Source: an uncultured Gammaproteobacteria bacterium (GTDB lineage: Bacteria; Patescibacteriota; Patescibacteriia; SBBC01; CAIJZX01). Taken from it: a stretch of DNA of 64,000 bases. The notes under the pieces are model-generated. The model saw only the letters and a list, made by a program, of their open reading frames with translations, searched no databases and had not been told where the DNA came from. Of the stretch, positions 1,191 through 30,759 are shown one piece after another. The stretch is from assembly GCA_964383765.1 (NCBI GenBank), contig CAYLHT010000001.1, positions 100,998 through 164,997 of the forward strand. The letters are read 5' to 3'. Position 1 is the first letter of the stretch, and every line of letters starts with the position of its first letter. A program made the translations under genes and the position numbers.

Positions 1191-1422
1191 GGAAATGTAT
1201 TGAAGTAAATGAAGGAACAACGCCGCCAACAGCCGCACTGTGTCGTGAAGCGGAAAGGAGACTGGCGTGGTTCAACATGAGAGTCATGCTGGCGCCACGA
1301 TACCATGAGAGATTGTTTTGTGCAAGGTCAGCTAAATATTGGGAAAGAAAAGGCGCCGCCAGTCAGGGACTGTGCGGCGCGGGTTGATTGGACGATCGTG
1401 AGATCGCTGGGAACGGGAGCGG

Positions 1423-1734
1423 CTAAGCCGCGTAATGCTTGTACGTCAGCTGCAGCTCGTTGATCACCACTTGGTGCCCGCTGGCGACTCTCGTCACTGT
1501 GTCCCGCACGCCGTGAAGGAGGTCGCGGAACTGCCGTCGCTGGTCGACCTTGAGCTGATCGCGTTGAGCCCTGAGGCGTTCACCTTCCTTGCGGAGGGCG
1601 TGCTCGGCGACTCGACGCTCATCTGCGCTCGCAGCCCGCAAGCAACGGCAGGCGGCCGACTGCAGAATGGACACCGGGTGGGTGGGAATGGATGGCTCCT
1701 TCTTCGGCCGTGTGACTTCGCTGGTTAGCGTCAT
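1423..1734 (-). CDS. Hypothetical protein (GC-rich, coiled-coil-like), uncertain
   Basis: A 103-aa ORF in an 870-bp GC-rich gap between rny and clpP. The RBS is weak and a plus-strand ORF of similar length overlaps it. Confidence 0.2.
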   Translation of the reverse strand: MTLTSEVTRPKKEPSIPTHPVSILQSAACRCLRAASADERRVAEHALRKEGERLRAQRDQLKVDQRRQFRDLLHGVRDTVTRVASGHQVVINELQLTYKHYAA

Positions 1735-2063
1735 GCTAGTCCAGACCTTTCAGACTCCCGACGCAACGGGAGGGGTTGCGGCGAACAGCGTGAACGAAGG
1801 AAAAGCAGCTTAAGCTGCGATGTGTGGATCCATCAAGGGGATTCCTTTCGGATCAGAGGTTGGCAAGGGGCATCGGGAAGAACAGGGAGTGGGCGCACGT
1901 ACAGCGCGCTGGAGATGCGCTGCAGCGCCCGCGGACCAACGGAGGAGTACTCCGTTTGCGTGTGGTCCCGTGGCCCACTCCGAATCGTGATTGAGACGAG
2001 TGTGCCATGGGCACCATCTCGGTGTACTCTAAAGCTCCGCGCCTGTCAAGGCACGGAATTTTG

Positions 2064-2663: not shown

Positions 2664-2711
2664 ACGGCCAGCCTAGCAAACCCTCGAACATTTGACTAGG
2701 CCCAAGCCCCA

Positions 2712-2745
2712 AAAGAAAAACCGCACGCGGGGTGCGGGGTTGGCA
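2712..2745 (-). terminator. Rho-independent terminator of the 2749-3186 gene
   Basis: On the minus strand a hairpin CCGCACCCCGCGTGCGG is followed by TTTTTCTTTTGGGG. Confidence 0.5.
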
Positions 2746-2748
2746 ACG

Positions 2749-3186
2749 CTACTCTTCAGGACGCGATCGCGTGCTTTCGCGGTTCGGCTTATGCATGGCC
2801 TGACGCGGGTCGATCCAGCCCACGAATTGGATCAGATCAATCGCCAGGTCAAGACGACCGAGGCAGAAACAGCTGGTGGCCAGCTGTTGCCACAGCCGCG
2901 TGTCATAGATGGCGTACGTGACGCCATCCATCGCGGTCAACAGTGCATGCCGGTGCTTTCCGCGTTGCGAGAAGTCGAGCGATCGCTGGAGCCGGTCATC
3001 AGCCATGGTCTGGTTCGAGGCGGGATACAGACCCGGAATCTCACGCTTGAGATTCTGAACTATGGCTCGAACCTCAGGGGTGATGTACGCCGGTAGCGGC
3101 CGGCTTTGGTCTGCCCGGAGACGCGTGGCTAAACACTCAAGGCTGATCGCAGCGATCTGCAGAACCTCCGGAAGATCGTTCGACAC
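2749..3186 (-). CDS. Hypothetical protein, GC-rich
   Basis: 145 aa with a GTG start preceded by GGAGG 5 nt upstream and an intrinsic terminator downstream. No recognisable motif. Confidence 0.5.
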   Translation of the reverse strand: MSNDLPEVLQIAAISLECLATRLRADQSRPLPAYITPEVRAIVQNLKREIPGLYPASNQTMADDRLQRSLDFSQRGKHRHALLTAMDGVTYAIYDTRLWQQLATSCFCLGRLDLAIDLIQFVGWIDPRQAMHKPNRESTRSRPEE

Positions 3187-3233
3187 GATAACCTCCGCAG
3201 TGAATGGTGATGAGGTGAAGAGCTGGAGTGACC

Positions 3234-4238
3234 CTACGTGCTTGCCGAAAGACTGTCAACCACTTTCCAACCGCCGCCAGATTTGATTATTTTCCCACGC
3301 ATCCGAAATCCAGCGGCTTTGGTGTGCCCGCCGCCCCCGAATTGTTTGGCAATCGCGGCGACGTCAATCTCGCTGGTCGTGCGCAGGCTTCCCTTAATGA
3401 ATCCCCCGCGTTCCTCCTTTACTACCAAAGCGACTTTCCCATCACTCAAACTGTTGAGGAAATTAGAAATTCCGGTTGCCGCTCGATCATCCACGCCGCA
3501 CTCATGAAAATCTTGCAGGGTCAGCACCGTGGAGACGACGCCGGTCGCTGTGTTTAAGTTGAGACGCGATAGCGCCCGGCCCCATAACTGAAGTGTGCCA
3601 ATTGATTTATTGCGCATGGTGGCGGCGGTGATCGTCCGGTGATCCGCACCATAGCGCATCAGCTCCGCCGCGATTTCCATTGACTCTTGATTCGTATTCA
3701 AATGGGCAAAATGTCCGGTGTCCGTCAGAATTCCGGTCAGCAACGCCGTGGCCACGTGGGGCGTGAGCGGAACACCAAGGTGTCGTAGCAAACGGAACAT
3801 AATAATTGTGTTGGAACTAGCGCTAGCATCAATAAAATTATGATCAACCGCGGATTGGCCTTTGTGCTCGATCACGGTTGGATGATGATCGATGTTGACG
3901 ACGCTGGTTTTTGTTTGGTCACGTTGAATAAGCTCGTCAGCCAATGGACTGCGTTTAATGTCGCCGGTGTCGAAAATAATTACGAGTGGAAAGGCGTGAA
4001 CGCTGTCCGGCAACTCCGACATAATCCGATGGGGTTTCGTGAGGTACCCAAACATAGCCGGAATCGGGTCAGGCGAATACAGAATTGATTCCTGGCCGTA
4101 GTGCCGGACAACGTGATCCATGGCCAGCATTGAACCGAGGCTATCCCCGTCCGGCTGGGTGGTCATGGTCAGCAGCACACGTGGACTGGCTTTCAACAGT
4201 CGGTCGAGGGTTTGGGCGAAATGTTGGTCGGGGGGCAT
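3234..4238 (-). CDS. nrnA: DHH/DHHA1 phosphoesterase, NrnA-like oligoribonuclease/pAp phosphatase
   Basis: 334 aa with a DHH motif region (NIDHHPT), DHHA1 and the C-terminal GGGGH motif (FGGGGHTKAAGF). Confidence 0.75.
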   Translation of the reverse strand: MPPDQHFAQTLDRLLKASPRVLLTMTTQPDGDSLGSMLAMDHVVRHYGQESILYSPDPIPAMFGYLTKPHRIMSELPDSVHAFPLVIIFDTGDIKRSPLADELIQRDQTKTSVVNIDHHPTVIEHKGQSAVDHNFIDASASSNTIIMFRLLRHLGVPLTPHVATALLTGILTDTGHFAHLNTNQESMEIAAELMRYGADHRTITAATMRNKSIGTLQLWGRALSRLNLNTATGVVSTVLTLQDFHECGVDDRAATGISNFLNSLSDGKVALVVKEERGGFIKGSLRTTSEIDVAAIAKQFGGGGHTKAAGFRMRGKIIKSGGGWKVVDSLSAST

Positions 4239-4402
4239 TGGGGAAATAAAAGCCTGGGACTGTACCTGAAACAGGACTAATCGTCAAGGATTGCTTGACC
4301 GTGGGTCCCTCCGGGCGTATCGTGCCGATAACGCGAGGAGGGGCGACGTTCCTTCCATTCCGAATATCGAAACCGCAAGTGGGCCGCACGGAAAGCGAGG
4401 CT

Positions 4403-4696
4403 ATGATGGAGGCTCATCGAGTTGAGATAACACGCGTTGTCCGACCGCAGCAGAAAATCGTCACCGATCCCCGCCAGATCAAGACAATTCTGTCGGCAAT
4501 CCAAGCCGGCGACCCGATCGAACGCTTCATTCCCTCACCGTGGGCAATCCGAGACACCTTTCATCTGAACGATGACCAGGGGAACATCATAAGGACGGTC
4601 CACGTCATCGGGTGCAACGTTGTCTGCGATGGCAGAAGGCATTATACCCTCGATGCATCAGCCTACCGGGCGATCATCGAACCCCTCATCGGCTAA
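4403..4696 (+). CDS. Hypothetical small protein, gene 1 of a small-ORF operon
   Basis: The ATG is preceded by the conserved leader GGAAAGCGAGG. It is 98 aa (MMEAHRVEITRVV...) and the region is GC-rich. Confidence 0.35.
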   Translation: MMEAHRVEITRVVRPQQKIVTDPRQIKTILSAIQAGDPIERFIPSPWAIRDTFHLNDDQGNIIRTVHVIGCNVVCDGRRHYTLDASAYRAIIEPLIG

Positions 4697-4727
4697 TTCA
4701 AGCCGAACCATGAAAGCGAGGTTGAAG

Positions 4728-4955
4728 ATGGCAGTGTCTAGAGTCACTCGGGTTCACCGCGAATCTGAACGAATGGAAGCCCGACGGGTTCGGCTGCTTG
4801 AACGGCACAGGATTCCGCACCAACTCTTGGGTGACTGGCTGGCCGAATCGACCCACCATTGGCATCGGATTTCACCCTCGGCTCGCCGAGCGGTGCGGAC
4901 ACTCCTGACGCATCTCGAACAGACGCGACGACCAACGTACCCCGCTGAGGATTGA
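4728..4955 (+). CDS. Hypothetical small Arg-rich protein, gene 2
   Basis: The ATG is preceded by the same leader, GAAAGCGAGGTTGAAG. 75 aa. Confidence 0.35.
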   Translation: MAVSRVTRVHRESERMEARRVRLLERHRIPHQLLGDWLAESTHHWHRISPSARRAVRTLLTHLEQTRRPTYPAED

Positions 4956-4987
4956 TCAGGACGATCCGCCGAAAGTGAGGTGAATGA

Positions 4988-5191
4988 ATGCCCAGGCGTA
5001 ATCGACGACGTCCGGGCATCTACCGGACTGCGTTGCGGTGCAACCGCTGTAGTTTGGTACAGACCATCTTCCGCAAGTCGAACCGCCGCCAACAGCCGGG
5101 GCATATCAAGACCATGTGGTGCTTCCGGTGTAAGTGTTCAACCCAGCACACCGAGCTGCGGTCGCTCAGATCGAAACCAAGCCGAAAGTGA
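4988..5191 (+). CDS. Hypothetical small basic Cys4 zinc-ribbon-like protein, gene 3
   Basis: The leader is CCGAAAGTGAGGTGA. It is 67 aa with CNRCS...CFRCKC (two CxxC pairs) and is very Arg/Lys-rich. Confidence 0.4.
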   Translation: MPRRNRRRPGIYRTALRCNRCSLVQTIFRKSNRRQQPGHIKTMWCFRCKCSTQHTELRSLRSKPSRK

Positions 5192-5200
5192 GGTGAGAGC

Positions 5201-5470
5201 GTGTTCACAAGGTACTTCACCGGCATTTTCCTCGTTGGATGTGCCATCTTGTTTCCCACCATCTTCCGCAGCCAGCCATACACAACGCGCTGGAGATTGG
5301 GAGGGGCCCTGATGCTGCTAGTGGCGGGCAGCATTGTTCTCTTCAACCCACCGCCGGAAGTTTTCATCTGGCTGATCTTTGTGGGCGCCGCAGCAGGGCT
5401 AGTTGCGGTCTGGCCGGTTCACAAGACGCTTCCCTTGTTCCTGCGGGACACTTTCAGATGGCGGTCGTGA
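5201..5470 (+). CDS. Hypothetical small 2-TM membrane protein, gene 4
   Basis: The leader CCGAAAGTGAGGTGA precedes a GTG start. It is 89 aa with two hydrophobic helices. Confidence 0.4.
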   Translation: MFTRYFTGIFLVGCAILFPTIFRSQPYTTRWRLGGALMLLVAGSIVLFNPPPEVFIWLIFVGAAAGLVAVWPVHKTLPLFLRDTFRWRS

Positions 5471-5786
5471 CTGTGATCTTTGGACAGGGAACGACATTCG
5501 TCAAAACCGGGGTGGGTACCGGTGCGATGGATGCTCGTCTCCCTGTCTTTTTCTTTTCTGCATAAAAGTCGTTTGCAAAAACGTAGCTCGCCCATTCATG
5601 GGCGATCGTTTTTGCCGATGAATCGGCAAGCTACCTGAACCGGAAAAGGGCCGCTTATTTTTTTGTCATTTCGAGCCAGCCAGCGAGAAATCTGCTTTGA
5701 TAATTTATCCGGCCAGATCTCTCCCTTCGCCAAGCTTCGGTCGAGGTGACAAAGAGTAGGCGGTCGGGGTTCGAAATGACAATTGA

Positions 5787-6245
5787 TTACCGCCGCGGCT
5801 TCCGTGGATTTAAGGCTTGGCCGGGTTGCTTGCCGAGTGCTTCTTTTTGCTTGTCGCGCTCAAGCCGCTCGTCTTCAACCGTTTTGGCGTCGAGGCTTAG
5901 GCCTAAATCCTGCGAGGTCATGGCGTCGAGCACTTGGGTGATATGCTGGGCGCGTTCCTGTGATCGATCCAGCACGAACGTCAGCTTCGGCACGAATTTC
6001 ATGACCAACCGCTTGTTCAGAATGCTTTGAATGTCAGTTATCCGGTCGGTTACAATTTTCAATGCCTCATCTTCGTGGGTGGCCGGTAACACCGACAACC
6101 ACACCTTCGCGCTTTCCGCGTCGACCGCCACTTCAGCCTTACTGACTGTCACAAACATTCCCGACGGAAACTCAACTTCTCGCGACAAAATCGTGGCGAC
6201 TTCTTGTTGGACTAAAGAGTTGAGTTTTGCGATCCGTTCGCTCAC
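5787..6245 (-). CDS. rbfA: Ribosome-binding factor A
   Basis: 152 aa with the RbfA N-terminal pattern RIAKLNSLVQQEVATIL. It sits immediately downstream of infB. Confidence 0.85.
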   Translation of the reverse strand: MSERIAKLNSLVQQEVATILSREVEFPSGMFVTVSKAEVAVDAESAKVWLSVLPATHEDEALKIVTDRITDIQSILNKRLVMKFVPKLTFVLDRSQERAQHITQVLDAMTSQDLGLSLDAKTVEDERLERDKQKEALGKQPGQALNPRKPRR

Positions 6246-8065: not shown

Positions 8066-8124
8066 AGAATTGCTTGGCGATTTTACAAAAAAACAACTGG
8101 CGTGTCAATCGGCAGCCGAGTTTG

Positions 8125-8754
8125 CTAACTCGTCGCCTGTGTCAAAATCCGGACTTCAATCTCGGCCGGAACCAGGGCTTTGAACTTCTCAGCGTCAGCC
8201 AACGATCCAATAATTGAACCGTAGTGCATCGGAATCACGACGTTGGGGTTGATCCGTTTGACTGCTTCCGCCGCCTCTTCGGCTGTCATCACATATGTGC
8301 CGGACACTGGTAACAAAGCAATATCACAACGAAAGTTTTCCATCTCCGGAATCAGATCCGTGTCACCGGCGTGATAGATGCGTTGGCCGCCGAGGGTCAA
8401 GATGAAACCGACTCGAACATCTCCTGGCGGATGAAATTCTTTGTTGGTGTTATACGCCGGCACGGCCTCAATCTCAATTCCGGCGACGCTCACCTGATCA
8501 CCCGGCTTGACCAGATGAACATTGGGGTTGGAAAATTTGTCTGCACACGAATTGGCCACGACCATCTCGGTACTCGGCTGGGAGATGGCCGCGACATCGT
8601 TTGGTGAACAGTGATCAAAATGCTCGTGACTAATCAAGATTACGTCGGCTGGCGTGACATTCGGTGGGAGTTTCCACGGGTCAATGAAGACCGTCTTTCC
8701 ATCGCCGAAGATTTTGAAAGCGCTGTGACCGTACCAGGTAATGGCTGGGGTCAT
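8125..8754 (-). CDS. Metal-dependent hydrolase, MBL fold (UPF0173-like)
   Basis: 209 aa with HEHFDH (the HxHxDH motif) and a conserved C-terminal PMHYG. Confidence 0.8.
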   Translation of the reverse strand: MTPAITWYGHSAFKIFGDGKTVFIDPWKLPPNVTPADVILISHEHFDHCSPNDVAAISQPSTEMVVANSCADKFSNPNVHLVKPGDQVSVAGIEIEAVPAYNTNKEFHPPGDVRVGFILTLGGQRIYHAGDTDLIPEMENFRCDIALLPVSGTYVMTAEEAAEAVKRINPNVVIPMHYGSIIGSLADAEKFKALVPAEIEVRILTQATS

Positions 8755-8756
8755 GG

Positions 8757-10919: not shown

Positions 10920-11097
10920 AATGTTTTTATGCGTCCCGTTAGAGATTTTTCAAAACAATCTGCCTTTGAATCGACAACGACCCTGCATCGACAGAGCCCC
11001 TTGAGATGTATACATACGCAGGTCTTTCAGAAGCATGACTAGCACGTCAATTTTTCCATGACCGGACAACTATTTAGTAACGTCAATCTCTAACGGG

Positions 11098-11349
11098 ATG
11101 CGTCGCGCATCACGAACCATCTCAGCTCGGATCCATAAGCTTTCCGGTCAACTCTTGGCGGTAGAGAAAATGCTGTCTGAGCGACGGGAATGTTCTGATG
11201 TTCTCAATCAACTGAGTGCGGTCCGCGCTGGTTTAGAACATGTCGCGCTCATCGTGTTTCAAAAAGAACTTCAACGCCTAGCCAGTAAAAAGGCTTTAAC
11301 CCTGAATGACGTTCAACGTTTATCCGAAACATTTAGTAAAACGACATAA
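11098..11349 (+). CDS. Metal/thiol-sensing transcriptional repressor, CsoR/RcnR/FrmR family (DUF156)
   Basis: 83 aa with RIHKLSGQLLAVEKMLSERRECSDVLNQLSAVRAGLEHVALIVFQ, aligning to the CsoR helix-bundle core. Only the first conserved Cys (ECSDVL) is present. Confidence 0.7.
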   Translation: MRRASRTISARIHKLSGQLLAVEKMLSERRECSDVLNQLSAVRAGLEHVALIVFQKELQRLASKKALTLNDVQRLSETFSKTT

Positions 11350-11350
11350 C

Positions 11351-11677
11351 ATGGCAAAAATCATTGTCAACGATCAGAATTTTCAGCAAGAAGTCTTGGA
11401 AGAGAAAACGAAACCAGTCCTCGTGGATTTTTGGGCAGTCTGGTGTTATCCATGTCGGACACAGGGTCCGATCGTCGACGAGTTGGCGAACGATCTCGGC
11501 GACAAAGTGAAAGTTGCAAAAATTGAAGTCGATGAAAGCCCGGAAGTGTCGCAGAAATACAACATTCTCTCGATTCCAACACTAGCCATTTTTAAAAACG
11601 GTGAAATGGTGTGGCAAGGAGTCGGCGTTCATCAAAAGCCAGTGCTCCAACAGGAGTTGAGTAAACATTTGGCCTAA
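11351..11677 (+). CDS. trxA: Thioredoxin (atypical WCYPC active site)
   Basis: MAKIIVNDQNFQQEVLEEKTKPVLVDFWAVWCYPCR... has the thioredoxin fold pattern. The ATG lies immediately after the upstream stop. Confidence 0.8.
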   Translation: MAKIIVNDQNFQQEVLEEKTKPVLVDFWAVWCYPCRTQGPIVDELANDLGDKVKVAKIEVDESPEVSQKYNILSIPTLAIFKNGEMVWQGVGVHQKPVLQQELSKHLA

Positions 11678-11678
11678 C

Positions 11679-12668
11679 GTGAAGCCGGTCCAGGATGTGA
11701 TTGTGGTTGGAGCCGGCCCGGCCGGGTTAACGGCCGCGCTGTATGCAGCGCGCCGCGGCTTAAGCGTCGTGGTCTTGTCGCAAGACATTGGCGGCCAAGC
11801 CTCAACCACAGCGGAAATTGAAAACTATCCAGGCGTCGATCCGATCGACGGCTTAGAGCTGATGACGAGGTTCCAGCGCCAAGCCGAGCGGGCCGGCGCG
11901 CAGGTGCGGATTGAAGAAGTCATCCAGATCGAAAAGGATGACAACGGTTTTACGGTTAAAACTCATTTGGGTGACTACCAGTCCCAAACAGTGATTTTAG
12001 CGTATGGCCTGACGCATCGACATTTAGATATTCCAGGAGAAGAAAAATTTTCCGGGCGGGGTGTGTCGTATTGTGCGACGTGTGATGCACCCTTGTTTAA
12101 GGGCAAACCGACCGTGGTGGTTGGCGGCGGCAACTCGGCTATGGACGCGGCGCTACTGCTTTCGAACTTCAGTCCACATGTCACCATCATTACGCACCAC
12201 TCGGAATTTCACGGCGAGCGTGTGTTGATTGACCAATTAGCTGCGACGCCCAACCTGAAGATTTACACCAACGCGAAAGCCTTGCGGATTAATGGCGAGA
12301 AGAGTCTGGAATCAATTGAGATTGAACATGGTGGACAACCGGTCACCATTCCAACCGCCGGTGTGTTTGTAGAAATCGGTTACACCGTCAATCCGAAACT
12401 CGTAAAAGATATTACTGATCTCGACGAGCGGCACCAAATTGTGATCGATCCACAGACGAATGGCACCAGCGTGCCGGGCTTATTCGCGGCCGGAGACGTG
12501 ACGACGATCGCCCAGAAACAAATCGTGATCTCGGCCGGCGAAGGCGCGAAGGCCGCGCTCAGCGCACACCAGTATCTGCAATCACTTGGGCACGTACCAG
12601 TGGCGGGAAAAGTTGACTGGGGACGGAAAACGCCGATGCGCTATCAATCGTCGCATGACAAAAACTGA
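11679..12668 (+). CDS. trxB: Thioredoxin-disulfide reductase
   Basis: 329 aa with the FAD motif VIVVGAGPAGLTAALYAAR, the redox-active CATCDA and the NADPH motif GGGNSA. Confidence 0.9.
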   Translation: MKPVQDVIVVGAGPAGLTAALYAARRGLSVVVLSQDIGGQASTTAEIENYPGVDPIDGLELMTRFQRQAERAGAQVRIEEVIQIEKDDNGFTVKTHLGDYQSQTVILAYGLTHRHLDIPGEEKFSGRGVSYCATCDAPLFKGKPTVVVGGGNSAMDAALLLSNFSPHVTIITHHSEFHGERVLIDQLAATPNLKIYTNAKALRINGEKSLESIEIEHGGQPVTIPTAGVFVEIGYTVNPKLVKDITDLDERHQIVIDPQTNGTSVPGLFAAGDVTTIAQKQIVISAGEGAKAALSAHQYLQSLGHVPVAGKVDWGRKTPMRYQSSHDKN

Positions 12669-13077
12669 AACGATTCAGGTGGCGGTGGCGGTGATTCGTA
12701 ATCAGGCCGGAAAAATTTTTTTGCAACAACGTTGCGATCCCGATTTTGCGGAGGCGGATAGCATTTGGGAATTTCCGGGCGGTGGCATCGACGCTGGTGA
12801 AACGAAAGATCAGGCACTACTTCGCGAGTGCCAAGAAGAAATCGATTGCGAAGTTACTATCAAGCGCTGGTTACCGTTAAGGCAAACGAACCACTGGATC
12901 AAAGCAGATGGAACACCGGTCACGGCCTACGTTGAATGCGCTGAGGTCGAGATTGCCACTGGTTCTCCCCGGGCAGCCAATGCTGAAGTCGGGGAACTGG
13001 GATGGTTCACCAAGGAGCAAATTTCAACCATGCCCGTTTTACCCGGCATCCCAAAATTTATCGACTGTCTAGATTGA
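12655..13077 (+). CDS. NUDIX hydrolase
   Basis: Nudix box GGGIDAGETKDQALLRECQEEIDCEV. The start is chosen at ATG 12655 (MTKTETIQVAV), overlapping the trxB end. Confidence 0.75.
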   Translation: MTKTETIQVAVAVIRNQAGKIFLQQRCDPDFAEADSIWEFPGGGIDAGETKDQALLRECQEEIDCEVTIKRWLPLRQTNHWIKADGTPVTAYVECAEVEIATGSPRAANAEVGELGWFTKEQISTMPVLPGIPKFIDCLD

Positions 13078-13081
13078 AACC

Positions 13082-14308
13082 ATGACGAACCCATTCCATT
13101 CAGCCTTAACCCAACTCGATACCGCCGCAACGACTATCAAACTTGATCAGCGTTTACTTGATATTCTGCGGCAACCGCAGCGGATTTTAGAATTCACGAT
13201 TCCGGTTGAAATGGATAGTGGAAAAACGCGAGTGTTCACTGGCTATCGCGTTCAGTACAACAACGCCCGCGGTCCATACAAAGGCGGCATCCGATTTCAC
13301 CCGGAAACGAATTTGGATGAGGTCAAAGCCTTGGCCTTTTGGATGACGATGAAGTGCGCCATAGTCGGCATTCCATATGGCGGTGGCAAAGGCGGGGTGA
13401 CCGTCAATCCAAAGCAACTGTCCAAAACCGAACTTGAGCAGTTATCGCGAGGCTGGGTGAAAGCCATGTTTCCAAACCTTGGGCCGACCGTTGATGTGCC
13501 AGCGCCCGATGTCTACACCACCCCGGAAATTATGGCGTGGATGACCGATGAATATTCGAAGTTAGTTGGGAAGCCGACACCGGCCGCATTTACCGGTAAG
13601 CCCTTGGAGCACGGCGGTTCAGAAGGCCGGATGACCTCAACCAGCCAAGGCGGCGTGTATGTGTTAGATGAAATCATGAACAAACTGGGAAATGTTCCGC
13701 GTGGAACACGCGTTTCAATTCAAGGATTCGGCAATGTCGGCGCGTTTGCCGCTAAGATTTTACACGCGGAAGACTATACCGTCGTCGCAGTCTCAGATTC
13801 AAAAGGTGGAATCATGAACACTCAGGGACTAGATGTTCCGGCTGTACTCGCGCACAAAGAGAAAACCGGCAGTTTGGCTGGGTTTCCTGGCGTAGAGAGC
13901 ATATCCAACGACGATATTCTGACCATTGATTGCGATGTGCTGATTCCAGCCGCGCTGGAGAATGTCATTACCAAAGAAAACGCAGATGCGATCAAAGCCA
14001 AAATTGTCCTCGAGCTTGCCAACGGTCCAACCGCACCCGATGCGGACGCGATTATGTTCAAGCGCGGCATTCATGTCGTGCCGGATATTCTGGCGAACGC
14101 GGGCGGCGTGACAGGTTCGTATTTCGAATGGTTGCAGAATATGCAGAATGAGCATTGGACCGAAGCGCAGGTTTGGGACAAGCTCAAACCGTTAATGATT
14201 GAAGCGTTGAATGCGACGTGGACCATGGCTCAACACCATCAAGTTAATCTTCGAACCGGCGCCTACATCGTGGCCGTGCAGCGAATTGGGGAAGCGATGC
14301 AAAAATAA
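13082..14308 (+). CDS. gdhA: Glutamate dehydrogenase (Glu/Leu/Phe/Val dehydrogenase family)
   Basis: 408 aa with KGGIRFHP...VGIPYGGGKGG and the dinucleotide motif GFGNVG. Confidence 0.9.
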   Translation: MTNPFHSALTQLDTAATTIKLDQRLLDILRQPQRILEFTIPVEMDSGKTRVFTGYRVQYNNARGPYKGGIRFHPETNLDEVKALAFWMTMKCAIVGIPYGGGKGGVTVNPKQLSKTELEQLSRGWVKAMFPNLGPTVDVPAPDVYTTPEIMAWMTDEYSKLVGKPTPAAFTGKPLEHGGSEGRMTSTSQGGVYVLDEIMNKLGNVPRGTRVSIQGFGNVGAFAAKILHAEDYTVVAVSDSKGGIMNTQGLDVPAVLAHKEKTGSLAGFPGVESISNDDILTIDCDVLIPAALENVITKENADAIKAKIVLELANGPTAPDADAIMFKRGIHVVPDILANAGGVTGSYFEWLQNMQNEHWTEAQVWDKLKPLMIEALNATWTMAQHHQVNLRTGAYIVAVQRIGEAMQK

Positions 14309-24381: not shown

Positions 24382-24582
24382 TCAGAAACCATAGAACGGC
24401 TGGTCTGAGGTGAAGAACTTCACCCGCGTTCTTCCCTGCCACAAGAAGTGAAGCAGGGTGAAGGACACAGCGAACAAAGTCATGGCCACCTTTGAGAAGC
24501 TCCACCCCATAAGGTGGGAGAGGGCCAGGGAGAGAAGAAGAACCACTCCGCTACAGATCAAGCTTATCGCCAGTCTTCTCAT
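24382..24582 (-). CDS. Small membrane protein (66 aa)
   Basis: A perfect SD AAAGGAGGTGA precedes the ATG; 2 TM helices; a terminator follows. Confidence 0.5.
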   Translation of the reverse strand: MRRLAISLICSGVVLLLSLALSHLMGWSFSKVAMTLFAVSFTLLHFLWQGRTRVKFFTSDQPFYGF

Positions 24583-24724
24583 GTCTATCTCACCTCCTTT
24601 TATAGAGTAAACAAGATTGTCAATTTACAATGACAGGTAATAATACTGTTCTTCATGCATAAGTCAACGACTTTTTATTAAGGTGTTGTAAAAAAATAAC
24701 AACTAATATATTCTAAGACTGATT

Positions 24725-30582: not shown

Positions 30583-30650
30583 TGGTCGGGGTACCGAGAC
30601 TCGAACTCGGGACCTCCTGCTCCCAAAGCAGGCGCGCTTCCAGGGCTTCA
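30583..30650 (-). pseudogene. Truncated tRNA-Pro(TGG)-like 3' fragment (D-stem 3' side through CCA)
   Basis: The reverse complement reads GCGC-G-CCTGC-TTTGGGA-GCAGG-AGGTC-CCGAG-TTCGAGT-CTCGG-TACCCCG-A-CCA. No complementary 5' acceptor strand is present; hairpins (GTCCCG-ATTA-CGGGAC etc.) lie upstream. Confidence 0.45.
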
Positions 30651-30759
30651 CCGTCCCGATTACGGGACAGGGCTCAGCCCGTCTCGGCGGTCGCGAGTGA
30701 AGCAGTTCACTCGCTGTTTCCGCCTCGACCCAACTTCGCTACTCGACATATGCCCGCAG

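What the first reader, a model, noticed from the sequence alone, without database searches (positions are those of the whole stretch)
4380..5470. Four tandem small ORFs each preceded by the same about-15-nt leader (GCCGAAAG[C/T]GAGG), including a Cys4 zinc-ribbon-like protein and a 2-TM protein
The motifs GGAAAGCGAGGcu-ATG (4391), GAAAGCGAGGuugaag-ATG (4712), CCGAAAGUGAGGUGAaug-ATG (4971) and CCGAAAGUGAGGUGAgagc-GUG (5184) each sit immediately upstream of consecutive plus-strand ORFs of 98, 75, 67 and 89 aa. A repeated SD-containing leader on four adjacent genes argues that these are real, co-regulated small proteins despite the noisy six-frame picture in this GC-rich stretch. Gene 3 is highly basic with two CxxC pairs (a nucleic-acid-binding zinc ribbon?). 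Gene 4 has two TM helices. The block lies divergent from nrnA and is compositionally distinct. No homology to known toxin-antitoxin, phage or defence modules is recognisable by eye, so it is a candidate uncharacterised small-protein system.
Basis: partly seen in the sequence, partly recalled or inferred. Interest (0 to 1): 0.6.

Follow-up and report, generated by a model that had tools for sequence, protein, structure and literature searches.

The report
Phage-derived four-gene insertion cassette
A 1.5-kb piece of foreign, phage-like DNA carrying four small genes, each behind an unusually strong ribosome-binding site, sits between two conserved housekeeping genes of an uncultured Kerfeldbacteria-like bacterium; one gene encodes a phage zinc-ribbon protein that resembles ribosomal protein bL33, and the other three have no detectable relatives.

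Summary
GAAAGYGAGG occurs four times in 64 kb, always in this block and always 2-7 nt upstream of four tiled plus-strand ORFs (0.35 hits expected by chance).

The repeat is an extended Shine-Dalgarno sequence. It can form 9-12 bp, with one bulged base, with a canonical 16S rRNA tail.

The block is not a native operon. In the closest relatives (Kerfeldbacteria-like CPR genomes), infB-rbfA-nrnA-clpP are contiguous. Window ~4293-5786 is therefore a lineage-specific insertion. It has its own promoter-like site, raised GC3, atypical codon usage and a strong terminator hairpin.

ORF3 belongs to phage family phrog_1257. Its relatives lie in phage early or replication modules. The same leader precedes genes there, including ORF3 homologues. 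A family profile and an AlphaFold model both match bL33 best, but below Pfam's threshold.

ORF1 has no homologue among 1.84 billion representative proteins. ORF2 and ORF4 matched nothing in the narrower searches I could run. ORF4 has three hydrophobic segments, not two, and competes with an overlapping ORF that public annotation called.

Verdict: a moron-like phage cassette of unknown function, and a new member of a known kind. No toxin-antitoxin or defence signature was found. Interest is modest.

The parts
4293..5786 (.). Lineage-specific insertion of about 1.49 kb between the rbfA stop codon and the nrnA promoter
   Evidence: In relatives L005, L006 and L008, rbfA is followed by nrnA after 50-250 nt with no ORFs. 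tblastn with O1-O4 finds nothing in the relatives. Boundaries were read from the alignment of promoter and stop context and are approximate to about 10 nt.
4295..4323 (+). Sigma-70-like promoter candidate for the cassette (TTGACC-17-TATCGT)
   Evidence: It lies back to back with the nrnA promoter-like site. This is a consensus match only, not shown to be functional.
4259..4287 (-). nrnA promoter-like site (TTGACG-17-TACAGT), part of the host and not of the insert
   Evidence: An equivalent TTGACA-17-TAGAGT in L005 and TTGACC-17-TAAAGT in L006 sit at the same distance from the nrnA ATG.
4391..4400 (+). Leader 1, GAAAGCGAGG (extended Shine-Dalgarno of O1)
   Evidence: Predicted duplex with a generic 16S tail is -14.0 kcal/mol.
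4406..4696 (+). O1, 96 aa (97 aa from ATG 4403), a soluble protein with no detectable relatives
   Evidence: Best of six frames by codon log-likelihood, GC3 0.67. Only itself plus two artefactual matches to repetitive proteins among 1.84e9 representatives. Public call P0003 is a 131-aa version starting at GTG 4301. The AlphaFold model has pLDDT 49.5 and is unusable.
4712..4721 (+). Leader 2, GAAAGCGAGG (Shine-Dalgarno of O2)
   Evidence: -13.9 kcal/mol.
4728..4955 (+). O2, 75 aa, basic (pI 11.6); no family match
   Evidence: Best of six frames, but weakly. No hit in Pfam, PHROGs, NCBIfam, PADLOC, PDB, phage, plasmid or viral searches. No start variant is on record in the public protein collection.
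4968..4983 (+). Leader 3, GCCGAAAGTGAGGTGA (Shine-Dalgarno of O3)
   Evidence: Predicted 12 bp with a one-base bulge, -17.9 kcal/mol, among the five strongest sites in the window.
4988..5191 (+). O3, 67 aa, Cys4 zinc ribbon; member of phrog_1257 with a bL33-like fold
   Evidence: phrog_1257 E = 2.6e-14. tblastn matches in 135 phage records. Homologues L003, P0004-P0008 and 145 metagenome stretches. Family profile against PDB: the top 22 hits are all bL33, best E = 1.5e-4. AlphaFold pLDDT 73; Foldseek top hits are bL33 (TM-score 0.72 normalised to the target) and phage family members.
5181..5196 (+). Leader 4, GCCGAAAGTGAGGTGA (Shine-Dalgarno of O4); contains O3's stop codon
5201..5470 (+). O4, 89 aa, small membrane protein with three hydrophobic segments; the frame is contested
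   Evidence: Hydropathy. Favoured over the overlapping ORF 5239-5565 (P0011, the public call) for four reasons: it has a Shine-Dalgarno sequence; its GC3 is 0.72 against 0.50; its codon log-likelihood is 0.009 against -0.28 per codon; and the rival ORF runs through the terminator hairpin. No homologues found.
5482..5560 (+). Intrinsic-terminator-like element: 66-nt hairpin (5482-5547) followed by CUUUUUCUUUUCU
   Evidence: -42.3 kcal/mol, z = -4.2. It starts 12 nt after O4's stop.
5588..5605 (.). Short GC hairpin with T-runs on both strands; a candidate terminator for rbfA, which converges from the minus strand
5649..5782 (.). Imperfect hairpin of about 130 nt abutting the rbfA stop (arms TTGTCATTTCGAGCC / GGTTCGAAATGACAA); role unknown, possibly the end of the inserted DNA
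   Evidence: (I2). Not repeated elsewhere in the window or in the fetched loci.

Best explanation
Window ~4293-5786 is a horizontally acquired, phage-derived, moron-like cassette. It was inserted into the short rbfA-nrnA spacer of a Kerfeldbacteria-like (CPR) genome.

It is a self-contained transcription unit. A sigma-70-like promoter faces away from nrnA. An untranslated leader of about 70-80 nt follows. Then come four tightly packed small ORFs and a long hairpin with a U-run as terminator.

The repeated 'leader' is an extended Shine-Dalgarno sequence. GAAAG-Y-GAGG(UGA) can pair with a canonical 16S 3' tail (UCACCUC-CUUUC) over 9-12 bp with one bulged pyrimidine. This form of the sequence comes from the donor gene pool. 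It recurs in front of genes, including O3 homologues, in phage contigs that carry the O3 family. It is absent from Kerfeldbacteria relatives, and most genes of the host itself lack any Shine-Dalgarno sequence.

Inferred, not shown: the leaders give strong and partly coupled translation of all four products from one mRNA (O3's stop codon lies inside O4's leader).

Products:
- O1: soluble, no relatives.
- O2: basic and probably helical, no relatives found.
- O3: a Cys4 zinc ribbon of phage family phrog_1257 whose nearest structural and sequence relative is ribosomal protein bL33.
- O4: probably a small three-helix membrane protein.

The most likely role is a phage accessory or host-modulating module retained in the host. 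O3 probably acts as an RNA- or ribosome-binding factor, or as a DNA-binding factor. That functional step is a guess.
For: Insertion: nrnA's best relatives are Kerfeldbacteria/Patescibacteria MAGs. In L005, L006 and L008, infB-rbfA-nrnA-clpP are contiguous with spacers of 50-250 nt. None of O1-O4 is present there.

Foreign signature: GC3 is 0.67-0.73. Codon log-likelihood is near 0, against a host mean of 0.29 +/- 0.11.

Unit anatomy.

Motif: significance. Predicted duplexes are -14 to -17.9 kcal/mol. The O3 and O4 leaders are among the five strongest anti-Shine-Dalgarno binding sites in 64 kb. Only 7-8 of 54 long host ORFs have a Shine-Dalgarno sequence.

Donor pool: O3 matches phrog_1257 at 2.6e-14 and 135 phage records. 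Homologues lie beside SSB, RecT, HTH, DnaC-like, RusA, VRR_NUC and Rha genes, and beside HNH and a putative terminase, in phage contigs. GAAAGYGAGG occurs 16 times in 482 kb of those loci, 13 of them next to a start codon. It lies directly before O3 homologues in L259, L272 and L254. It occurs 0 times in 89 kb of Kerfeldbacteria relatives.

bL33 likeness.
Against: - No integrase, transposase, att site, target duplication or terminal inverted repeats were found. The insertion mechanism is therefore unknown.
- The relatives share only 57-71% nrnA identity. Loss in several lineages, although less parsimonious, is not excluded.
- Only O3 links the block to phages. O1 has no homologue anywhere. O2 and O4 could not be searched in the deepest libraries.
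- O2 and O3 have no record in public gene calls. O4 conflicts with a called ORF.
- The 16S 3' tail of this organism is not in the window, so the pairing model assumes a canonical tail.
- Promoter and terminator are pattern and energy predictions.
- The phage contigs that share the leader are mostly low-GC (30-45%), unlike this 57% GC block. The actual donor is therefore unidentified.
Confidence: 0.65

Rival explanations
1. A native, vertically inherited small-protein operon of this lineage. On this view the common leader is a dedicated co-regulatory element, for example the binding site of a translational regulator or an RNA-processing site.
For: The four copies share 10 nt, and two of them 16 nt, which is more than a minimal Shine-Dalgarno sequence needs. 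The block has its own promoter and terminator. Other lineage-specific small ORFs sit between core genes in this genome, so such insertions could be a normal feature of these genomes.
Against: The block is absent from all nearest relatives. Its codon usage is atypical. The same 10-mer is used as an ordinary Shine-Dalgarno sequence in unrelated phage genes, so no special regulator needs to be invoked. No conserved gene order was found anywhere.
Confidence: 0.12
2. O3 is a working ribosomal protein: an extra Cys4 (zinc-binding) bL33 paralogue that the host ribosome uses. The neighbouring ORFs would then be incidental.
For: bL33 is the best PDB match both by family profile (top 22 hits, best E = 1.5e-4, nearly full-length) and by predicted fold (TM-score 0.72 normalised to the target, rmsd 2.2-2.4 A). 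O3 carries an RKSNRRQQP stretch like bL33's KKNRRNNP. Phage-borne bL33 genes are documented (PMC6375957, read). The block lies next to infB and rbfA.
Against: O3 gives no Pfam Ribosomal_L33 hit at E <= 1. The best hit among seven family members is 0.043, far below the gathering threshold. The family's hallmark motif PGHIK(T/H)M(W/Y)C replaces bL33's conserved PD(R/K)LE(L/M)KK(F/Y)C. O3 has long basic N- and C-terminal extensions. Its relatives sit in phage early and replication modules, not with translation genes.
Confidence: 0.08
3. A toxin-antitoxin, abortive-infection or other defence module built from small proteins, for example a membrane effector (O4) with regulators (O1-O3).
For: It is a small, foreign, self-contained cassette with a membrane protein and basic putative nucleic-acid binders. 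It lies in a variable spot between core genes, as defence islands often do.
Against: No hit in PADLOC, Pfam or NCBIfam for any of the four proteins. O1 has no homologue among 1.84e9 representative proteins, whereas known toxin-antitoxin and defence families are widespread. O3 relatives are encoded by phages themselves.
Confidence: 0.07
4. Largely non-coding or decaying DNA. Only O3 would be a gene or gene relic, and O1, O2 and O4 would be chance ORFs in GC-rich sequence.
For: Antisense and overlapping ORFs of 90-116 aa exist across the block. O1, O2 and O4 have no homologues. Their codon scores are far below the host norm. Gene callers did not call O2, O3 or O4, and picked another frame at 5239-5565.
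Against: The four ORFs tile 4403-5470 on one strand with gaps of 31, 32 and 9 nt. Each sits at a proper distance behind the rare 10-mer. The proposed frame is the best of six for O1, O2 and O4. O4 shows three clean hydrophobic segments with basic residues in the first loop and the C-terminal tail. The terminator follows O4's stop directly. The gene callers also missed O3, which is demonstrably a conserved gene.
Confidence: 0.08

Closest known systems
Phage morons: autonomous promoter-gene(s)-terminator units inserted between conserved genes (concept from lambdoid phage genomics; cited from my own knowledge)
   Same: It is a compact unit with its own promoter-like site and terminator. Its composition differs from the flanks. 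It sits exactly between two genes that are adjacent in relatives. It encodes small accessory proteins.
   Different: Classical morons sit inside prophage genomes. This unit sits in a bacterial core-gene cluster (infB-rbfA | nrnA-clpP), with no prophage around it within the regions compared to relatives. It carries four genes rather than one or two.
PHROG family phrog_1257 (labelled 'ribosome associated inhibitor A; zinc finger domain'; Bacillus phage Bastille gp010, Listeria phage A511 gp58, Bacillus phage Bobb)
   Same: O3 matches the family profile at E = 2.6e-14 over residues 11-64. It shares the four Cys and the K...H-K-M-C core. Predicted structures superpose at TM-score 0.68-0.77.
   Different: O3 is encoded in a CPR bacterial chromosome, not in a phage. 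It shares only 32-41% identity with the members aligned here. It has a more bL33-like central stretch and a basic tail. The family label is an annotation string. I found no paper that tests it.
Ribosomal protein bL33 (Pfam PF00471), zinc-binding C+ form, including phage-encoded bL33 (Mizuno et al. 2019, PMC6375957)
   Same: It is a four-stranded zinc ribbon with two CxxC knuckles and the same spacing, and a basic K-x-N-R-R-x-x-P segment. bL33 is the best PDB hit by both profile and fold.
   Different: It falls below Pfam thresholds. It has a different conserved motif before the second knuckle, and extra termini. There is no evidence of ribosome binding.
Extended Shine-Dalgarno sequences of Gram-positive bacteria and their phages (GAAAGGAGGTGA, the complement of the 16S 3' tail; from my own knowledge)
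   Same: It has the same purine-rich complement to the 16S tail at 5-7 nt from the start codon. It is used serially on adjacent genes.
   Different: A pyrimidine is inserted after GAAAG in all four copies, which gives a bulged duplex. In the O3-family phage loci this variant is at least as common as the canonical 9-mer (16 against 10). Here it occurs in a host whose own genes mostly lack Shine-Dalgarno sequences.

Membership tests
phrog_1257 (phage small zinc-ribbon family) | Significant match to the family profile over most of the protein | tested here: met
   E = 2.6e-14, 54.2 bits, residues 11-64 against profile positions 27-80 of 97.
phrog_1257 (phage small zinc-ribbon family) | Two CxxC knuckles plus the conserved K / H-x-K-x-M-x-C core | tested here: met
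   C18, C21, K30, H39, K41, M43, C45 and C48 are invariant in a 7-sequence alignment.
phrog_1257 (phage small zinc-ribbon family) | Encoded in a phage genome | tested here: not met
   O3 lies in a bacterial core-gene cluster. No phage structural or integration genes lie in the flanks compared with relatives.
Ribosomal protein bL33 (PF00471) | Score above Pfam's gathering threshold for Ribosomal_L33 | tested here: not met
   No hit for O3 at E <= 1. Best among 7 family members is E = 0.043.
Ribosomal protein bL33 (PF00471) | bL33 zinc-ribbon fold | tested here: met
   AlphaFold model (pLDDT 73) has bL33 chains as top Foldseek hits: TM-score 0.66-0.73 normalised to the target, rmsd 2.1-3.2 A over 46-52 columns. 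E-values are weak (>= 0.056) because the domain is tiny. A profile search of the PDB puts bL33 first.
Ribosomal protein bL33 (PF00471) | Incorporation into the 50S subunit near the E site | not testable with these tools
   This needs ribosome purification with mass spectrometry, or cryo-EM.
Moron-like autonomous cassette | Present between two genes that are adjacent in related genomes | tested here: met
   rbfA-nrnA spacers are 50-250 nt in L005, L006 and L008, against 1548 nt here.
Moron-like autonomous cassette | Own promoter and terminator | tested here: inconclusive
   There is a promoter-like hexamer pair (9 of 12 matches) and a strong hairpin with a U-run. No transcript data are available.
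Moron-like autonomous cassette | Composition different from the flanks | tested here: met
   GC3 is 0.67-0.73. Codon log-likelihood is about 0 against the host's 0.29 +/- 0.11.
Toxin-antitoxin / anti-phage defence systems | Match of at least one component to a known toxin-antitoxin or defence protein family | tested here: not met
   PADLOC, Pfam and NCBIfam gave no hits for O1-O4.
Integron cassette / IS / MITE | Integrase or transposase, attC or terminal inverted repeats, target-site duplication | tested here: not met
   There is no such gene. No inverted repeats pair the two ends of the insert. The only strong inverted repeat (5663-5677 / 5768-5782) is internal to one end. No other copies exist in the window.

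The most novel reading that the evidence does not exclude
The phrog_1257 family, including O3, could be a set of bL33 mimics that phages use to occupy or remodel the bL33/E-site region of host ribosomes. On this reading the CPR host has captured such a gene, with three partner genes that have no relatives, in a cassette. The cassette's bulged, extended Shine-Dalgarno leaders would give it privileged translation in a cell where most mRNAs lack a Shine-Dalgarno sequence. That would make it a small, self-contained translation-modulating module.
Probability: 0.1. Interest if true: 0.65.

Novelty: new member of a known kind. Interest (0 to 1): 0.3.

Why it matters
Three practical points follow.

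First, automatic annotation missed a real gene. O3 is conserved across hundreds of phages. Yet no start variant of O2, O3 or O4 is on record in a collection of 15 billion proteins, and a probably wrong frame was called over O4. CPR genomes may therefore hide many small, horizontally acquired genes.

Second, the cassette is a clean example of phage-type DNA landing inside a core translation-gene cluster of a CPR bacterium. Very little is known about phage-host gene flow in this group.

Third, the widespread phage family labelled 'ribosome associated inhibitor A' is shown here to be closest to ribosomal protein bL33, by both profile and predicted fold. That turns an empty annotation string into a testable idea: ribosome or rRNA binding.

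None of this overturns current understanding.

Tried and rejected
- Word-indexed homology search with O3 alone found nothing.
- O1 against 5.8e9 clusters and against 1.84e9 representatives gave only itself plus two repeat-protein artefacts (P0009, P0010).
- O1, O2 and O4 gave nothing against phages by tblastn or IMG/VR. O2 and O4 gave nothing against plasmids. None of the three hit Pfam, PHROGs, PADLOC or NCBIfam. O1 and O2 gave nothing against PDB sequences.
- I looked for O1-, O2- or O4-like genes next to O3 homologues in 83 phage or metagenome loci. Nothing was significant. The best case, an O1-like 29% match upstream of the O3 homologue in L235/L236 (E = 0.12-0.5), is a different protein with a TM helix and was rejected.
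- The exact leader was scanned against IMG/VR. More than 120 single hits is roughly the number I estimate by chance for a 15-mer in a collection of that size. The one contig with two copies (L134) has them inside a 306-nt coding tandem repeat, so it is unrelated.
- The single-sequence AlphaFold model of O1 was too poor to search with.
- Rfam found nothing in the block.
- I looked for a 16S gene to check the anti-Shine-Dalgarno tail. None is present in the window or in the genome-contig loci L005-L084.
- The hairpin arm motif GTCATTTCGARCC is not a repeated element here.
- Contig look-up for the NCBI record returned only short Logan contigs identical to the window.
- A literature search found no experimental work on the 'ribosome associated inhibitor A' phage family.
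Full report
**1. The observation**

The 10-mer GAAAGYGAGG occurs exactly four times in the 64-kb window, at 4391, 4712, 4971 and 5184. All four copies are on the + strand and inside the block. Dinucleotide shuffles give 0.35 expected hits, and none of 100 shuffles reached four. The last two copies are identical over 16 nt, GCCGAAAGTGAGGTGA.

Each copy precedes the start of one of four tiled + strand ORFs:
- O1: 4403 or 4406 to 4696.
- O2: 4728-4955.
- O3: 4988-5191.
- O4: GTG 5201-5470.

The distances from GAGG to the start codon are 2 nt (5 nt to the second ATG at 4406), 6, 7 and 7 nt. The gaps between ORFs are 31, 32 and 9 nt. O3's TGA stop lies inside O4's leader.

The block is flanked by an nrnA-like DHH/DHHA1 gene (3234-4238, minus strand) and by rbfA (5787-6245, minus strand) followed by infB. 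O1 most likely starts at 4406. O4 has three hydrophobic segments, not two. O3 has five cysteines, four of them in CxxC pairs.

**2. What the leader is**

Paired with a generic bacterial 16S 3' tail, the O3 and O4 leaders form GAAAG / bulged U / GAGGUGA. That is 12 bp at -17.9 kcal/mol. The O1 and O2 leaders reach about -14 kcal/mol. The O3 and O4 leaders are among the five strongest such sites on either strand of the window.

This is therefore an extended Shine-Dalgarno (SD) sequence. The host's own genes are SD-poor. Only 7-8 of 54 non-overlapping ORFs of at least 150 aa have even a 4-5-nt SD core at the right distance. Where host SDs exist they read AAGGAGG.

The pairing model assumes a canonical 16S tail. 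No 16S gene is in the window or in the loci I scanned for one (L005-L084).

**3. The block is an insertion**

nrnA's closest relatives in the GTDB species set are Kerfeldbacteria/Patescibacteria MAGs, at 71, 71, 69, 67 and 57% identity. In L005, L006 and L008 the order infB-rbfA-nrnA-clpP is contiguous. The rbfA stop and nrnA start are 50 nt apart in L005 and roughly 200-250 nt apart in L006 and L008, with no ORFs between them. Here the spacer is 1548 nt.

An nrnA promoter-like TTGAC(A/G/C)-17-TA(G/C/A)AGT site is conserved at the same place in L005, L006 and the window. The inserted DNA therefore runs from just after the rbfA stop (5786) to about 4293. None of O1-O4, and no minus-strand ORF of the block, has a tblastn match in the relatives.

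The block has raised GC3 (0.67, 0.57, 0.73 and 0.72 for O1-O4). Its codon log-likelihoods under host usage are near zero, against 0.29 +/- 0.11 for host gene segments. I found no integrase, transposase, att-like repeat or second copy. The insertion mechanism is therefore unknown.

The window also differs from L005 by other small inserts, at 1272-2063, 2664-3233 and 8066-8756. L008 has its own 2.3-kb insert between nrnA and clpP. Spacers between core genes in this clade evidently turn over.

**4. Anatomy of the unit**

A promoter-like TTGACC-17-TATCGT site (4295-4323, + strand) lies back to back with the nrnA promoter-like site. Twelve nt after O4's stop, a 66-nt hairpin (5482-5547, -42 kcal/mol, z = -4.2) is followed by CUUUUUCUUUUCU, which is a terminator-like element. 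The whole non-coding tail 5471-5790 is unusually structured (z = -7.6). It includes a bidirectional terminator-like hairpin at 5588-5605 and a hairpin of about 130 nt next to the rbfA stop. These are predictions, not transcript data.

**5. The four products**

O3 is a real, conserved gene.
- It matches phrog_1257 at E = 2.6e-14.
- It matches 135 phage records, mainly Bacillus and Staphylococcus phages.
- It matches one IMG/VR contig, Logan proteins P0006-P0008 and 145 metagenome stretches.

These relatives share the motif PGHIK(T/H)M(W/Y)C and four Cys. They sit in phage early or replication modules:
- next to SSB and a RecT-like gene in L003;
- next to HTH regulators, RecT, a DnaC-like gene and RusA in L086;
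- next to VRR_NUC in L087;
- next to a protein I read as Rha-like in L235;
- next to a putative HNH endonuclease and a putative terminase in L210.

A profile of seven family members searched against all PDB sequences returns bL33 as its top 22 hits. The best E-value is 1.5e-4 and the match covers almost the whole of bL33. An AlphaFold model (pLDDT 73) has bL33 chains as its best Foldseek matches in the PDB, with TM-score 0.72 normalised to the target and rmsd about 2.3 A. Its best matches in BFVD are phage family members.

O3 does not reach Pfam's Ribosomal_L33 threshold. Its hallmark motif also differs from bL33's. I therefore file it as a phrog_1257 member with a bL33-like fold and probable remote homology, not as a bL33. 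The family's name, 'ribosome associated inhibitor A', is an annotation string for which I found no experimental paper. True phage-encoded bL33 genes are documented (PMC6375957).

O1 has no homologue among 1.84 billion representative proteins. The only matches are its own public call and two artefactual matches to repetitive proteins.

O2 and O4 matched nothing in any library I could still use. Their proposed frames are the best of six. O4's basic residues sit in the first loop and the C-terminal tail. I read this as consistent with the positive-inside rule for a three-helix protein (sequence).

**6. The leader is typical of the donor pool**

In 482 kb of metagenome loci carrying O3 homologues, GAAAGYGAGG occurs 16 times. 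Thirteen copies lie next to a start codon, and all copies lie on the strand that carries the O3 homologue. This outnumbers the canonical GAAAGGAGG, which occurs 10 times. The motif sits directly in front of the O3 homologues of L259, L272 and L254, and five times in the 4.2-kb viral contig L266. It occurs 0 times in 89 kb of Kerfeldbacteria relatives.

The leader is therefore an SD variant carried in from the phage gene pool. No cassette-specific regulatory element needs to be invoked. Those phage contigs are mostly low-GC, so the actual donor is not identified.

**7. Annotation status**

Exact-sequence look-ups show that the public protein collection holds only two products from this block. 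One is O1, as a 131-aa call from GTG 4301 (P0003). The other is an overlapping ORF at 5239-5565 (P0011). No start variant of O2, O3 or O4 is on record.

O3 was thus missed by the gene callers. For the O4 region I favour O4 over 5239-5565 for four reasons:
- O4 has an SD at 7 nt from its start.
- Its GC3 is 0.72, against 0.50 for the rival.
- Its codon log-likelihood is 0.009 per codon, against -0.28.
- The rival ORF runs through the terminator hairpin.

This conflict remains open.

**8. Explanation and rivals**

Best explanation (confidence about 0.65): a phage-derived, moron-like four-gene cassette with donor-type extended SD leaders. Its anatomy and foreign origin are well supported. Expression is inferred. 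Function is unknown. My working guess is a phage accessory or host-modulating module built around an RNA/ribosome-binding or DNA-binding zinc ribbon and a small membrane protein.

Rivals:
- A native co-regulated operon (0.12). This is contradicted by the block's absence from relatives.
- A working bL33 paralogue (0.08). O3 fails Pfam and has a different hallmark motif.
- A toxin-antitoxin or defence module (0.07). No family hits were found.
- Mostly non-coding DNA with chance ORFs (0.08). This is contradicted by the tiling, the SD spacing, the frame scores and the terminator position.

**9. Verdict**

The block is not a conserved new system. It is a lineage-specific foreign cassette in which one gene belongs to a known phage family. 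Novelty: a new member of a known kind. Interest: 0.3. The one lead worth following is the link between phrog_1257 and bL33.

Noticed in passing
window 5239-5565 (+) versus 5201-5470 (+): The public record (NCBI contig of 177,174 nt) holds a 108-aa product from 5239-5565 (P0011), which overlaps O4 in another frame. No start variant of O2, O3 or O4 is on record. O3, which has phage homologues, therefore appears unannotated, and the O4 region may be mis-called.
   Followed up: partly
window 5471-5790: The non-coding tail of the insert is very structured (MFE -133.5 kcal/mol, z = -7.6). Beyond the terminator hairpin it holds nested hairpins at 5583-5634. It also holds an imperfect hairpin of about 130 nt (5649-5782) whose arms, TTGTCATTTCGAGCC and GGTTCGAAATGACAA, abut the rbfA stop. 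There is no Rfam match and no repeat elsewhere.
   Followed up: partly
window 1272-2063, 2664-3233 and 8066-8756: Three further segments are absent from the closest relative, L005. They lie between RNase Y and clpP (ORF 1423-1734, minus strand, 103 aa), between clpP and nrnA (ORF 2749-3186, minus strand, 145 aa, behind a GGAGG Shine-Dalgarno sequence), and between infB and the next conserved gene (a metallo-beta-lactamase-fold protein of 209 aa). Core-gene spacers in this clade seem to be hot spots for lineage-specific inserts.
   Followed up: partly
L008 10990-13260: A Kerfeldbacteria relative carries a different insert of about 2.3 kb between nrnA and clpP. By eye its ORFs look like a DUF559/Vsr-like endonuclease (11089-11451, minus strand), small ORFs, and a TrmB-like regulator (12327-13199). 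I did not run a family search on them.
   Followed up: no
window 24382-24604 (-): A 66-aa hydrophobic ORF (24382-24582) sits 6 nt behind a perfect canonical extended Shine-Dalgarno sequence, AAAGGAGGTGA. This is one of the strongest such sites in the window, and another candidate small gene led by a Shine-Dalgarno sequence.
   Followed up: no
window 5189-5203: O3 and O4 are in the same reading frame, separated only by TGA and three sense codons. O3's stop codon is the 'TGA' of O4's GAAAGTGAGG leader. This arrangement suits translational coupling. A readthrough fusion is conceivable but has no support, because long host ORFs are intact under code 11.
   Followed up: no
loci L208-L287 (482 kb of contigs carrying O3 homologues): The bulged variant GAAAG[C/T]GAGG (16 copies) is more frequent than the canonical GAAAGGAGG (10), GAAAGAGAGG (5) or GAAAGGGAGG (0). 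This hints at a preference for a pyrimidine bulge in strong phage Shine-Dalgarno sequences. I did not test it against a wider phage background.
   Followed up: partly
window 30590-30652 (-): There is a borderline tRNA-like Rfam match (29.1 bits against a gathering score of 29) next to the tRNA-Pro/tRNA-Arg pair. ARAGORN did not call it.
   Followed up: no
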